Virus record (IMG/VR): IMGVR_UViG_2802429245_000007 | Source: a virus | Lineage: Duplodnaviria; Heunggongvirae; Uroviricota; Caudoviricetes | Length of the DNA: 37,506 bases | Strand: one strand, 5' to 3' | Shown here: positions 27,001 through 30,000 of the stretch, one piece after another | Numbering within the stretch: the stretch's first letter is position 1 | How the letters are laid out: each line of letters opens with the position of its first letter | Position numbers: made by a program

Positions 27001-30000
27001 TTTCCACATAAAAACCCATATTCCACAATTCGCCATCAAGGTCCCCAAGAGCTTCATCTTGCTCCTGTATATCTTTAGAAAAAATAAAATCATCTGCTAA
27101 AAGAAAACCCGTAAAATTATCACCACCAAAATGAGTATTATAATCAACCTCATCATAAAAATATCTCACTATAGCCTTCAGCAAGTTATGTACTTCAAGT
27201 GATTCAGTATCTAAACAAATATTATCTGAACCACAAAAAGCACAAGTACTATGAATGTTTTGCAAACGCATTAAGTTTTTAATATTTGATTCGATAATAT
27301 GATTTTCGCAGATAAACATTATAATCCCCCTTAATTACCCCTTAGATACTAATTATTGCCGTTTGGGACTGCGCGCGCAATCGTATCCCCGCCACGCCTA
27401 CCCGCTTTATGCAGTGGTTTTCATGCGCCTGCATGACATATGCAACAGCCCGCCAGCTCAGGCTGGCATCAGCGAAAACGATCGTCATACTATCATGCGA
27501 TCTCATGCGCCATATGAAGTTTTCCTGACACAGCCTTGGGTTGGGATAACACCTAACTCAGGAAGATTTTTTGTGTGTTTGTAACCCGCACCTAGAGTTT
27601 ACCAATCCATGTTTGCGGCATTATCCATCTCACGAGTTAAGTAATTAACCAATAAGTCCATATTCCTTTCTGATTTCATCGCCTCCGCATAGGTTCCATT
27701 AGTTACGTAAGATAGTATTAAAGGACATCCAGATTCAATATAAATTTTTGCTGGGGACAGTTCTCCCTGCCACAAATTTTCAAGAAAATCGTTAATTAAT
27801 TGCATTGCTTCAGGTGCCAAAAAATGCACACCATTTCCAAACTTGAAACGTTCTTTATTTTCTCGATGAGGCAGCAATAGTGGCACAGCCCCTACACTTG
27901 AGTGAAATTCCAATGCTTGCCCATCCTTACCGAAGGCGCCATGGGCTACAAAATTACGCACCTGTTTTCTGAGTATAAGTAAACGATCATAGAATGATTT
28001 TAGACTGGAAGAGTTAATATCAATGGCTAATTTGAATTTCTCCCCCCATTCTTTTCCAACTTTATCAGCCACATCATTCCCATTTTTTATCTCACCCTTC
28101 AAGATTGCAATAAGAATGAAAACATGCTCGGTCCAATTGAAAAATGACTCAATTGCAGACGTTGCTAACCACATAGCCTCTCTTCGGAGTTCAATTATCT
28201 TATTTGATTGTTCAAAAGTGGATTGTAACAGGCTGAAAAAATTATCAGACTTAAACTCACTATCAACTTCCAGTTTAGACTCTTGGCCAGCAGCAACTTC
28301 ATCAAGCTTCTGTTTATATAGCTCTAAAAAATAGCAAAACCTATCATAAAGAGAATTAGCATTGTTATTAACATTTAGATTTGAAGTCTTTGCTGCATTG
28401 TCTGCAAGCGAGTCAAAAAATTTCGTAGCAGCTTTAACCCCTGCGCAAATATGTCTCAAAACAGTTTTAGCTTGCTCTATATCATCATCACTCTTGATAA
28501 ATATATCTAAACCAAGTTTACGATGTTCTATAATTACGACAGTCCCATCAATCCGGACTGGGATAGAAAAAGAAATCTTCTCATCAACCCCACGATTTTT
28601 AAATTTCAGTAAATCTACCAAAAGAAAATAAACGAGATAATACGGAGGTAATGAGTCTCCCAAACCCGAGCGCTTACCCCAAAAATATTCATCAAGCTCG
28701 GCAGACTCCATTGTCCCTATGACTCTTCGGACGCGTTCTTCAACTTTAGCCAGATCCATTCCCCACACCGCCTTTCAATATCACTTAAGGTATTACAGCC
28801 AATGACATCGATTAAATACAGCGTAGATAATAGGCAACTTGCTACTGTTTTCAAGGGCTTTCTGTTTCAATCCTTAGTTGACCTTGCTGACGCGAGAATC
28901 TAGTTCTCACGCCAGCAACGCCCCTGCTGCTAACCGGGAAGATCCATTACACGGTTATATTCATGGGCACGAATTTTCGCCATCAACTCATCAGTCAGCT
29001 CTGAAACCCACTGCAGAGCCAGCCCCTTCTCTTCATCACTACACTCACTAGCCGCTACAAGCTTAAGAAAAAAATCAATGCGCTGGAGCTTCAAAGACTC
29101 CAAAAAATAGTCCTGCATCTTTCCTCCTATGACACCAAAACAATACTGTATACATAACCACTGTTTATATTTACAGTATATAATAATCTTACTGATGTAA
29201 AACGTTTTTTTACGCTCATCAGCCTGATATGCCTGGTATTATTAAGAGCACGAATTGTTAACCCGCGTAATTAATACAGGTTCCGCCACTTGTCATCTTC
29301 CTGCAAACGCTGGTTCCGATAGAAGATACGCAGGCCTGCTCCTGACGGAATACTGCCGCCGCGAAGGAGTAAATCGACCTCTTTCTCGCTGCCATCAAAT
29401 CCTCTGGACCTCAGTTCATAGACGAGCTGCTGTCGCTGATGGTCTGTAATTCGCTGTTTGTAGTCTTTACGCCGTTTCGGTTTCACCTGGCGTAACCTTG
29501 CAGCCAGTTCCCGGCGCTCTTTTTTGCTCATACTGTGCAGGTAATCGTGCAACTCCTTGTCATTCATACGGGTAATATCCGTTCTGGAGTCCCCATCAGC
29601 TGATTTGTCTTTCCCTTGTTGGTTCAAATTTTCAGCAAGGGGACAGTTATTGCCACGAGTCCAAGGGGCGCAAGCGCCCTGGTCGGCTGCCGCCTCCTGA
29701 ACGTCAACGGCCTTACGAACCATTTTCCACTTCACGGCATGAGTGCAGATCTTGCCCTCTGCAATGGGTGACCAGATGCCATAAATACGAATGCCGTGAT
29801 CGCCATAGGCGGTCGGCTCTTCGTTAATTTCATAAGCGGTTCTGATGAGGTGATATTTGCGGGGAACCAGTACGCCGCCCTGCTTCATGATGTAGGTGGC
29901 AAAACAACCAGCATCAGCAGCAGCCAGGATGGCATCAAGGCGCGGGTTATCCAGTACCGGCGCACCTGCTTTTTTGTCGCCCTGTTGCCTTGCCGCCTGA

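What the first reader, a model, noticed from the sequence alone, without database searches (positions are those of the whole stretch)
28884..28918. Strand-specific RNA stem-loop between the 62-aa gene and the 389-aa gene
Seen in sequence: 15-bp imperfect inverted repeat with a 5-nt loop. The two mismatches are A-C on the plus strand but become G-U wobble pairs on the minus-strand transcript, so the structure is fully paired only as RNA in the coding sense of the flanking genes. No U-tract follows it, so it is not a canonical intrinsic terminator. Inference: an mRNA processing, stability or attenuation element setting the expression ratio of the two genes.
Basis: seen in the sequence. Interest (0 to 1): 0.45.

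Follow-up and report, generated by a model that had tools for sequence, protein, structure and literature searches.

The report
Conserved RNA hairpin ending phage SOS operon
The stem-loop is real and is one copy of a previously uncatalogued, structure-conserved RNA hairpin that P2/186-like prophages carry just after their DNA-damage-inducible genes, at the upstream edge of their swappable cargo (defence-gene) region; it is not a terminator and probably shapes mRNA stability or processing.

Summary
On the minus strand, 28884-28918 forms a 15-bp hairpin with two G-U pairs. It extends to 18 bp across a G.G mismatch (28880-22), at -29.9 kcal/mol, and no U-tract follows.

The window alone is weak evidence, because 14.5% of shuffles contain such a stem. 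Comparative data settle it. The hairpin belongs to the phage backbone, not to the 389-aa gene. The same element sits after the last backbone gene in 117 loci of P2/186/PSP3-like phages from many enterobacterial genera.

Across 79 distinct copies:
- 91% of cells pair, against 35-51% in slid controls.
- 13 of 15 pairs show compensatory changes.
- G.U outnumbers A.C by 135 to 20, so the sense strand is the one under selection.

In most relatives two conserved boxes follow the hairpin, GGTTGAACAACGAG and CGAGGCGTTAG. The second serves as the ribosome site of the next SOS-operon gene. Sequences diverge sharply after it. The window copy keeps only a degenerate remnant of the boxes, then a foreign 389-aa gene.

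In the phage 186 record the element lies upstream of the annotated terminator t95b, so it is not that terminator. There is no Rfam match, and two P2-hotspot papers do not mention it.

Best reading (0.45): a post-transcriptional stability and insulation hairpin of the LexA-controlled message. The mechanism is inferred, not shown.

The parts
28884..28918 (-). Core hairpin: 15-bp stem with two G.U pairs and a 5-nt loop (CUAGA)
   Evidence: Homologous to columns 11-49 of alignment A1, which show strong covariation.
28880..28922 (-). Extended helix: three further base pairs (G-C, G.U, C-G) below a 1x1 G.G mismatch
   Evidence: Folds (-29.9 kcal/mol). In the family the equivalent AAC/GUU pairs form in 73-78 of 79 copies. 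The window carries the only double change at these pairs, so n=1.
28852..28926 (-). Full-length match to the family covariance model R1. It covers the hairpin and a degenerate remnant of box A (GGTCAACTAAGGAT). Box B is missing.
   Evidence: 43.9 bits, E 8e-11. It is the only copy in the window.
28930..29118 (-). 62-aa gene (phrog_698, function unknown), the last backbone gene before the hairpin. It occupies the position of PSP3 tumA and the 5' part of 186 tum.
   Evidence: region shared by 1101 of 5426 E. coli genomes. BLASTP finds no similarity to TumA or Tum, so the equivalence is positional only.
29160..29178 (-). Perfect LexA box TACTGTAAATATAAACAGT upstream of the 62-aa gene (a p95-type SOS promoter region)
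   Evidence: It corresponds to the annotated p95 promoter and LexA site of phage 186.
28827..28854 (-). Promoter-like site TTGAAA-16-TATTAT between the hairpin and the 389-aa gene
   Evidence: 10 of 12 match. This is a consensus match only. The number of such sites in the region is not above the shuffles.
27599..28768 (-). 389-aa cargo gene (RefSeq homologue starts at ATG 28759). It has no family assignment.
   Evidence: No hit in Pfam, PHROGs, PADLOC or NCBIfam. Present with this hairpin in only 10 E. coli genomes.
27380..27398 (-). cos cohesive-end sequence GGCGTGGCGGGGATACGAT, 16 of 19 identical to 186 cos
   Evidence: It places the hairpin and the 389-aa gene at the right end of the virion genome.
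29271..31712 (-). Replication endonuclease (P2 gpA / 186 A homologue). It defines the backbone upstream of the SOS operon.
   Evidence: RefSeq annotation of near-identical loci.

Best explanation
The hairpin forms in the sense-strand mRNA of the LexA-repressed small-gene operon of a P2/186-like prophage. In this window that message is the 62-aa gene. In relatives it is the 62-aa gene plus dinI, or 186 tum-orf97.

The hairpin sits 5-12 nt behind the stop codon of the last backbone gene in most copies read (17 and 32 nt in two). It is conserved in geometry, not in sequence: 3 bp, a G.G mismatch, then 15 bp and a 5-nt loop.

I propose that it acts after transcription. RNA polymerase reads through it. 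Once the message is cut or terminated further downstream, the stable helix stops 3'-to-5' exonucleases. The upstream SOS-gene segment then outlives the downstream cargo segment. The helix also keeps upstream coding sequence from pairing with the unstructured leader and ribosome site that follow it in intact copies.

In this window the downstream leader has been replaced by a foreign 389-aa gene. Only the hairpin's upstream role (3' protection of the 62-aa message) would remain.

Shown here:
- the structure and its conservation
- its strand bias
- its position
- that it belongs to the backbone
- that it lacks terminator features

Inferred: the exonuclease-barrier and insulation mechanism.
For: Structure and conservation:
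- The sense strand folds to -22.7 / -29.9 kcal/mol, against -15.8 / -16.4 for the other strand.
- Across 79 distinct copies, 90.9% of cells pair, against 35-51% when partners are slid.
- 13 of 15 pairs have compensatory changes.
- The covariation score is 0.566, against 0.09-0.19 for the slid controls.
- 0 of 500 shuffles reach the observed percentage paired, covariation score, number of doubly changed cells or number of further pair types. For the count of pairs with a change on both sides, 39 of 500 do.
- RNAalifold finds the same helix independently.

Strand bias:
- G.U 135 against A.C 20. The ratio is 6.75, against 0.9-2.8 in slid controls and about 1.6 expected from composition.
- The sense strand is the more stable in 68 of 81 variants.

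Evolution and position:
- The hairpin evolves faster in sequence than the flanking coding DNA (0.64-0.69 identity against 0.8-0.95) yet keeps pairing.
- It lies close behind a stop codon, and in intact copies a GAGG ribosome site and start codon come 8-9 nt after box B.

Not a terminator:
- No copy has a U-tract.
- In the 186 record the annotated p95 terminators t95a and t95b are other, canonical hairpins. The module lies upstream of t95b.

Backbone membership:
- The same hairpin variant occurs with at least five different downstream sequences. The same cargo occurs behind three different hairpins.
Against: - There are no transcript data. I could not test 3' ends, half-lives or cleavage.
- A generic exonuclease barrier does not need the near-constant geometry seen here (35-nt core, conserved G.G mismatch, A/U-rich top). 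That points to recognition by a specific factor.
- G.T pairs are also tolerated in single-stranded DNA, so the strand bias does not by itself prove RNA.
- Some relatives lack the element altogether (L009, L029-L035), so it is dispensable.
- Some have a canonical terminator at the same place (L009; 186 t95a). That could equally mean the role is to form a 3' end by termination.
Confidence: 0.45

Rival explanations
1. It is a specific endonucleolytic processing site, like the RNase III sites between phage T7 early genes. A double-strand-specific nuclease cuts the roughly 18-bp helix. This separates the SOS-gene message from the downstream cargo message, leaving a stabilising half-helix on the upstream piece.
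For: - Helix length, loop size and the conserved 1x1 G.G mismatch are nearly constant across 79 copies. That suggests a factor which measures the helix.
- The layout is stop codon, hairpin, leader, ribosome site, start codon. This resembles T7 intercistronic RNase III signals (my own knowledge).
Against: - The helix is only 15+3 bp. That is short for E. coli RNase III, whose substrates typically span about two helical turns (my own knowledge).
- I could not evaluate any sequence determinant.
- There are no cleavage data.
Confidence: 0.2
2. It is a transcriptional attenuator: a pause or factor-dependent partial terminator that limits read-through from the SOS promoter into the cargo region.
For: - In phage 186 the annotated partial terminator t95a occupies the position right after tum.
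- In L009 a canonical terminator directly follows the 62-aa gene.
- Selection for a stop or brake at this place is therefore plausible.
Against: - No copy has a U-rich tail. The conserved tail is GGUUGAACAACGAG, and the terminator scan is negative.
- In 186 the element lies upstream of the annotated terminator t95b of the p95 transcript. Taken at face value, that annotation has transcripts passing through it.
- In intact copies a gene with its own ribosome site follows within 40 nt, as expected for co-transcription.
Confidence: 0.12
3. It works as single-stranded DNA, not RNA. One version: a hairpin on the strand displaced during rolling-circle replication from the origin in gene A, serving as a priming or helicase-loading signal. 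Another version: a structured recombination site that defines the edge of the exchangeable cargo region, loosely like an integron attC site.
For: - The strand bias (G.T over A.C) would also be expected for a single-stranded DNA hairpin. DNA folding gives -15.0 against -9.3 kcal/mol.
- In the 186 record the replication origin lies 1.8 kb upstream.
- Sequences diverge sharply and repeatedly right after box B.
- The PSP3 lineage has two copies flanking one small gene.
- The 3' foot GTTGAAC fits the integron core pattern GTTRRRY (sequence; pattern from my own knowledge).
Against: - The element is missing in several otherwise intact-looking relatives, so it is not essential for replication.
- The fixed spacing to a ribosome site and start codon argues for an mRNA role.
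- I tested no recombinase for this. The 5' flank pairs with only 3 of the 7 nt of the putative core.
- Most junctions lie 30 nt beyond the GTT, not in it.
- I could not establish which strand is displaced in P2/186 replication.
Confidence: 0.08
4. It is a duplex-DNA palindrome bound by a dimeric protein, or a chance or relic palindrome with no function.
For: An uninterrupted stem of at least 15 bp arises in 14.5% of shuffles of the window.
Against: - Arm sequences vary freely while pairing is kept, with compensatory changes at 13 of 15 pairs. That is the opposite of an operator, where the sequence is read.
- The strong G.U against A.C asymmetry is not expected for duplex DNA.
- The element is conserved across many genera and next to unrelated genes.
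Confidence: 0.03

Closest known systems
Intercistronic or 3'-UTR stabilising stem-loops in polycistronic bacterial mRNAs (for example the REP hairpins between malE and malF, or the puf operon hairpins of Rhodobacter). Comparison from my own knowledge.
   Same: A stable hairpin just behind a stop codon inside an operon, with no U-tract. It folds on the sense strand. Its expected effect is differential stability of the upstream segment.
   Different: - This one is a single-copy, phage-specific element with near-constant geometry, a conserved G.G mismatch and (in intact copies) two conserved boxes downstream.
- It lacks the REP consensus and is not dispersed in the host genome.
- Its effect on stability is untested.
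RNase III processing signals between bacteriophage T7 early genes (R1.1 type). Comparison from my own knowledge.
   Same: A phage intercistronic hairpin followed closely by the ribosome site and start of the next gene. Its geometry is conserved and it has a small internal mismatch.
   Different: The helix is shorter (15+3 bp). It has a 1x1 mismatch rather than an asymmetric internal loop. There is no sequence similarity, and cleavage was not tested.
Terminators t95a and t95b of the phage 186 SOS operon (annotated in NC_001317)
   Same: The same operon type (LexA box, small antirepressor-position gene, dinI-like part) and the same general place, after the SOS genes and before cos.
   Different: t95a and t95b are canonical hairpins with a U-tract and are not homologous to this element. 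The 186 copy of this element lies between orf97 and t95b and carries no annotation.
Integron attC sites. Comparison from my own knowledge.
   Same: Structure conserved while sequence varies. Folding is strand-specific. The element sits at the boundary of exchangeable gene cassettes. One lineage has copies on both sides of a gene.
   Different: There is no inverse-core/core pairing beyond 3 bp. I looked for no integron integrase. Most junctions are 30 nt beyond the GTT. The element precedes the whole cargo region instead of ending each cassette.

Membership tests
Intrinsic (Rho-independent) terminator | Stable G+C-rich hairpin | tested here: met
   -22.7 kcal/mol, 15 bp.
Intrinsic (Rho-independent) terminator | U-rich tract immediately 3' of the stem | tested here: not met
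   The window tail is GGUCAACUAAGG and the family tail is GGUUGAACAACGAG. The terminator scan did not flag it.
Intrinsic (Rho-independent) terminator | Transcript 3' ends map to the hairpin | not testable with these tools
   Indirect evidence only. The 186 record annotates the p95 terminators at other hairpins, one of them downstream of the 186 copy.
Any Rfam family | Covariance-model match at or near the gathering score | tested here: not met
   No match at the hairpin in the window. No match at the intact copies in 186, PSP3 or a P2-type phage.
REP/BIME extragenic palindromes | REP consensus sequence and many dispersed copies in host intergenic regions | tested here: not met
   The five E. 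coli matches whose context I inspected all lie at this one position of P2-like prophages. There are 1-3 places per genome and a single copy in the window.
186-type LexA-controlled SOS (tum) operon | LexA box at the promoter | tested here: met
   Perfect TACTGT-N8-ACAGT at 29160-29178 on the minus strand. The annotated equivalent in 186 is.
186-type LexA-controlled SOS (tum) operon | First gene homologous to Tum / TumA | tested here: not met
   BLASTP finds no alignment between the 62-aa protein and PSP3 TumA or 186 Tum. There is only a short motif resemblance by eye. The protein is phrog_698, function unknown.
186-type LexA-controlled SOS (tum) operon | dinI-like gene or domain following | tested here: not met
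   Absent in the window, where the hairpin follows the 62-aa gene directly. Present in many relatives with the same 62-aa gene.
RNase III processing signal | Double-helical stem of about two turns, often with an internal loop, in an intercistronic position | tested here: inconclusive
   18 bp with a 1x1 G.G mismatch. The position is intercistronic in intact copies.
RNase III processing signal | Cleavage by RNase III | not testable with these tools
   Needs an in vitro cleavage assay or an rnc mutant.
Integron attC site | Paired inverse-core (RYYYAAC) and core (GTTRRRY) boxes closing the stem | tested here: not met
   The 3' GTTGAAC fits GTTRRRY, but the 5' flank supplies only AAC (3 bp), and the preceding bases vary and do not pair.
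Integron attC site | Associated integron integrase, with the crossover at G|TT | not tested
   I searched for no integrase. Most junctions lie after box B, 30 nt beyond the GTT.
Lambdoid nut site (boxA + boxB) | boxA consensus followed by a short (5-bp) boxB hairpin with a purine-rich pentaloop | tested here: not met
   The stem is 15 bp and the loop is mostly CUNGN. No boxA lies upstream, and the conserved boxes lie downstream.

The most novel reading that the evidence does not exclude
The hairpin and its two conserved boxes together form the built-in junction of the P2-type cargo (defence) hotspot. On this reading it is a structured, strand-specific element that both defines where foreign genes are spliced in and supplies them with an insulated leader and ribosome site under SOS control. 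That would make it a functional analogue of an integron attachment or expression site in a phage, possibly acting as folded single-stranded DNA.

The evidence does not exclude this:
- Sequences diverge repeatedly and sharply right after box B.
- The same cargo is found behind different hairpins, and the same hairpin in front of different cargo.
- One lineage has two copies flanking a gene.
- The geometry is constant and includes a conserved mismatch.
Probability: 0.08. Interest if true: 0.75.

Novelty: new member of a known kind. Interest (0 to 1): 0.45.

Why it matters
P2-like prophages are present in about a fifth of complete E. coli genomes here. Their A-to-portal region is a well-studied reservoir of anti-phage systems (PMC9122126, PMC13586616). 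Neither paper uses the words hairpin, stem-loop or terminator, and Rfam has no family for this element.

A covarying, strand-specific hairpin with a fixed position at the upstream edge of that hotspot is useful in three ways:
- It is a precise landmark for delimiting cargo in genome annotation.
- It is a candidate regulator of how long the SOS-induced small-gene (antirepressor-position) and dinI message persists, and so of the prophage induction threshold.
- It is a starting point for asking how cargo is expressed and exchanged.

For this window specifically, it shows that the 389-aa gene is an insertion into a recognisable backbone module, not a partner of the 62-aa gene.

Tried and rejected
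- **Intrinsic terminator.** Rejected. There is no U-tract in any of about 80 variants, the scan is negative, and the 186 terminators are other hairpins.
- **Terminator for the opposite strand.** The antisense tail CGUUUCUUA is mildly U-rich in some relatives. But the window's tail is CGCCCCUGC, and the antisense fold is the weaker one in 68 of 81 variants.
- **Known RNA family.** None found in Rfam at the gathering or E-value threshold.
- **Homology to 186 t95a.** Rejected by reading the sequence.
- **The 62-aa protein as a Tum/TumA homologue.** BLASTP is negative. I kept this only as a positional equivalence.
- **Box B as a universal plug-in ribosome site for many cargo genes.** Only two real protein families start at the fixed spacing: phrog_2100 and a UmuD-like protein. 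The idea is weakened.
- **The boxes as an sRNA seed with a target in the phage.** Complements of box A or B are not enriched in the window. Host targets were not searchable.
- **Boxes more conserved than their neighbours.** Not so in the protein-anchored set, where the flanking coding DNA is equally conserved.
- **Part of cos or a packaging signal.** The distance to cos varies from about 200 bp to over 1 kb.
- **Similarity to the 186 replication-origin nick region.** None is convincing.
- **Chi site.** The arms contain GCTGGCGT/GCTGGCGG, which differ from GCTGGTGG and vary. Dropped.
- **Literature.** Searches for the motif, the 186 SOS operon and P2-like sRNAs found no description of this element. 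A search on P2 replication found nothing useful.
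Full report
**1. The observation**

Read on the minus strand, which is the coding strand of the flanking genes, it is UUGCUGGCGUGAGAA-CUAGA-UUCUCGCGUCAGCAA. That gives fifteen consecutive pairs, two of them G.U, and a five-base loop.

- As RNA the minus strand folds to -22.7 kcal/mol (z -6.8).
- The plus strand has A.C mismatches at the two wobble positions and reaches only -15.8.
- With a few flanking bases the helix continues for three more pairs below a 1x1 G.G mismatch (28880-28922). That form gives -29.9 against -16.4 kcal/mol.
- The 3' tail is GGUCAACUAAGG, so no U-tract follows. 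The terminator scan does not flag the site.

Taken alone, the window is not strong evidence. An uninterrupted stem of at least 15 bp (wobble allowed, loop 3-8) appears in 14.5% of dinucleotide-preserving shuffles of the 37.5-kb window.

**2. Context**

The window is a P2/186-like prophage. Reading the minus strand, the order is:

- the replication endonuclease A (29271-31712)
- a perfect LexA box (29160-29178)
- a 62-aa gene (28930-29118; phrog_698, function unknown)
- the hairpin, 11 nt after that gene's stop codon
- a promoter-like hexamer pair (28854-28827, a consensus match only)
- a 389-aa gene with no hit in Pfam, PHROGs, PADLOC or NCBIfam
- the cohesive-end site, GGCGTGGCGGGGATACGAT at 27398-27380, 16 of 19 identical to 186 cos
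- a 384-aa gene with a C-terminal RES domain
- the portal gene, on the other strand

This is the region between gene A and the portal gene that has been described as a hotspot of anti-phage systems in P2-like phages (PMC9122126; PMC13586616).

**3. The hairpin belongs to the backbone, not to the 389-aa gene**

- Megablast of 28600-29300 finds the upstream part, down to 28942, in 1101 of 5426 complete E. coli genomes. Only 10 continue into the 389-aa gene.
- A more sensitive search shows about 420 further genomes with an 88%-identical copy of the last codons of the 62-aa gene plus the hairpin, followed by different sequence.
- A few genomes have the hairpin directly after a dinI-like gene that follows the 62-aa gene.

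**4. The family**

I collected loci in two ways, neither of which used the hairpin sequence.

- The 62-aa protein as a query against one genome per species gave 33 loci, from Escherichia, Citrobacter, Klebsiella, Enterobacter, Kluyvera, Lelliottia, Serratia, Pantoea, Tatumella, Erwinia and others.
- A 14-base box that I noticed downstream of the hairpin in those loci (GGTTGAACAACGAG) served as a query against viral contigs.

In all, 117 loci carry the same module:

- a stop codon, then a few bases ending in AACG
- a 35-nt hairpin
- GGTTGAACAACGAG
- four to six variable bases
- CGAGGCGTTAG
- an abrupt loss of similarity

The upstream gene may be the 62-aa gene, dinI/tumB, 186 orf97, PSP3 gp37 or a small P2-type gene after A. 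About a third of the protein-anchored loci lack the element. Some of those have a canonical terminator or the cos-proximal backbone in its place.

**5. Structure conservation**

Seventy-nine distinct copies were aligned (A1).

| Measure | Named 15-pair helix | Controls |
|---|---|---|
| Cells forming standard pairs | 90.9% | 35-51% when 3' partners are slid by 1-3 columns |
| Pairs with compensatory double changes | 13 of 15 | 7-13 in slid controls; 39 of 500 shuffles reach 13 |
| Covariation score | 0.566 | 0.09-0.19 slid; 0 of 500 shuffles reach it |

No shuffle reaches the observed percentage paired, number of doubly changed cells or number of further pair types either (all). RNAalifold predicts the same helix and nothing else.

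The three extra pairs below the G.G mismatch (AAC with GUU) form in 73-78 of 79 copies but hardly vary. The only double change at them is in the window itself (GGC with GUC), which is suggestive but is a single case.

In the protein-anchored loci the hairpin is less conserved in sequence than its coding neighbours (0.64-0.69 column identity against 0.8-0.95) while keeping its pairing. The two boxes are about as conserved as the coding DNA. Identity drops to 0.2-0.35 just after box B.

**6. Which strand**

- Among stem cells, G.U occurs 135 times and A.C 20 times, a ratio of 6.75. A.C would be G.U on the other strand.
- Slid controls give ratios of 0.9-2.8, and base composition predicts about 1.6.
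- The sense strand is the more stable in 68 of 81 variants. The means are -17.3 and -12.9 kcal/mol.

It does not strictly separate RNA from single-stranded DNA of the same polarity, because G.T is also the best-tolerated DNA mismatch.

**7. What it is not**

- It is not a canonical intrinsic terminator, because no copy has a U-tract.
- In the phage 186 record the depositors annotate a LexA-controlled promoter p95, then tum, a partial terminator t95a, orf97 and a terminator t95b. Both t95a and t95b are canonical hairpin-plus-U-tract sites.
- The 186 copy of this element (30340-30418; 82.7 bits with my model) lies between orf97 and t95b and has no annotation. Taken at face value, that annotation has p95 transcripts running through the element.
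- Rfam has no match in the window or in intact copies.
- It is not a REP element. The five E. coli matches whose context I inspected all lie at this one prophage position.
- The two hotspot papers do not contain the words hairpin, stem-loop or terminator. A full-text search for the box sequence finds nothing.

**8. What follows the hairpin**

In intact copies box B contains GAGG. A start codon follows 8-9 nt later in about 30 distinct contexts. Nearly all of those genes belong to one 85-aa family of unknown function (phrog_2100), and three are UmuD-like.

The module therefore looks like the native intercistronic region between the dinI-like gene and the next gene of the SOS operon. In more than half of the contexts that next gene is gone. 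The module is then followed by unrelated cargo or by the cos-proximal backbone, always with the break right after box B.

- One hairpin variant occurs with at least five different downstream sequences.
- One cargo start occurs behind three different hairpins.
- The PSP3 lineage has two copies about 405 nt apart, flanking gp37.
- In the window the break lies earlier. After GGU the sequence is only a degenerate echo of box A, and box B is absent.

**9. Mechanism**

These points are shown:

- a sense-strand helix of conserved geometry
- its position just behind a stop codon in a LexA-controlled message
- the absence of terminator features
- membership of the backbone at the upstream edge of the variable region

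The mechanism itself is inferred. I commit to a post-transcriptional role at 0.45. The helix forms in the read-through message and blocks 3'-to-5' exonucleases, so the SOS-gene segment persists longer than what lies downstream. It also insulates the following leader and ribosome site from upstream sequence.

The near-constant geometry and the conserved G.G mismatch fit a factor that measures the helix. A specific cleavage site of the T7 RNase III type is therefore the main rival (0.2). The remaining rivals are:

- a factor-dependent attenuator (0.12)
- a single-stranded DNA role in rolling-circle replication or cargo exchange (0.08)
- a DNA palindrome or a chance feature (0.03)

**10.

The description and the strand argument are right, and so is the rejection of a canonical terminator.

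The idea that the hairpin tunes the ratio of the 62-aa and 389-aa genes is not supported. The second gene is foreign cargo found behind this hairpin in only ten E. coli genomes. The hairpin is far older and more widespread than that pairing.

**11. Novelty and interest**

The element is a structured nucleic-acid motif with strong covariation. It is not in Rfam and is not mentioned in the literature I could search. Its likely kind, an operon-internal stability or processing hairpin, is well known. It is useful as a landmark of the P2-type hotspot and as a candidate control point for SOS induction of these prophages. I score it 0.45.

The most novel reading not excluded is that the module is the hotspot's built-in junction and expression socket, perhaps acting as folded single-stranded DNA. 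I give that about 0.08.

Noticed in passing
window 2702-2780 (+): A full-length RybB sRNA gene (Rfam RF00110, 106.5 bits) lies at the left side of the window, just outside the prophage tail-gene end. The prophage therefore sits next to rybB. ARAGORN finds no tRNA in the window.
   Followed up: no
window 26165-27319 (-): A 384-aa protein with a C-terminal RES domain (PF08808, E 4e-18) is encoded between cos and the portal gene. That is a second cargo slot, on the other side of cos. In the near-identical E. coli 1283 locus (L001) a different 557-aa gene occupies the slot.
   Followed up: partly
window 27599-28768 (-): The 389-aa cargo protein has no hit in Pfam, PHROGs, PADLOC or NCBIfam. It is an unassigned gene in a known defence hotspot, present in only 10 of 5426 complete E. 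coli genomes.
   Followed up: partly
window 27380-27398 (-): The cohesive-end site GGCGTGGCGGGGATACGAT is 16 of 19 identical to 186 cos. It lies between the two cargo genes, so the 389-aa gene is at the right end of the virion DNA and the RES gene at the left end.
   Followed up: yes
L160 952-1030 and 1357-1435 (PSP3); also L082, L089, L090: The PSP3 lineage carries two copies of the hairpin-plus-boxes module about 405 nt apart, flanking the small gene gp37. The first copy has diverged boxes.
   Followed up: partly
L003 3595-3861, L026, L087 and about 25 other loci: A conserved 85-88-aa protein family (phrog_2100, function unknown; N-terminus MGxKDSNYQVVYRG...PGGW) starts 8-9 nt after box B. 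It appears to be the ancestral next gene of the SOS operon. A UmuD-like 107-aa protein takes its place in three loci.
   Followed up: partly
window 36406-36452: There is a second LexA-box-like site (TACTGTATGTATAACCAGT, one mismatch; minus strand, 36406-36424). Next to it is a perfect 13-bp hairpin flanked by A and T runs (36424-36452), which looks like a bidirectional terminator. Both lie near the start of the ORF at 36376.
   Followed up: no
L162 24384-24412 (phage 186 record): The 186 annotation says that tR1 and other terminators in the early lytic operon are anti-terminated during lytic growth. I did not look for the element responsible.
   Followed up: no
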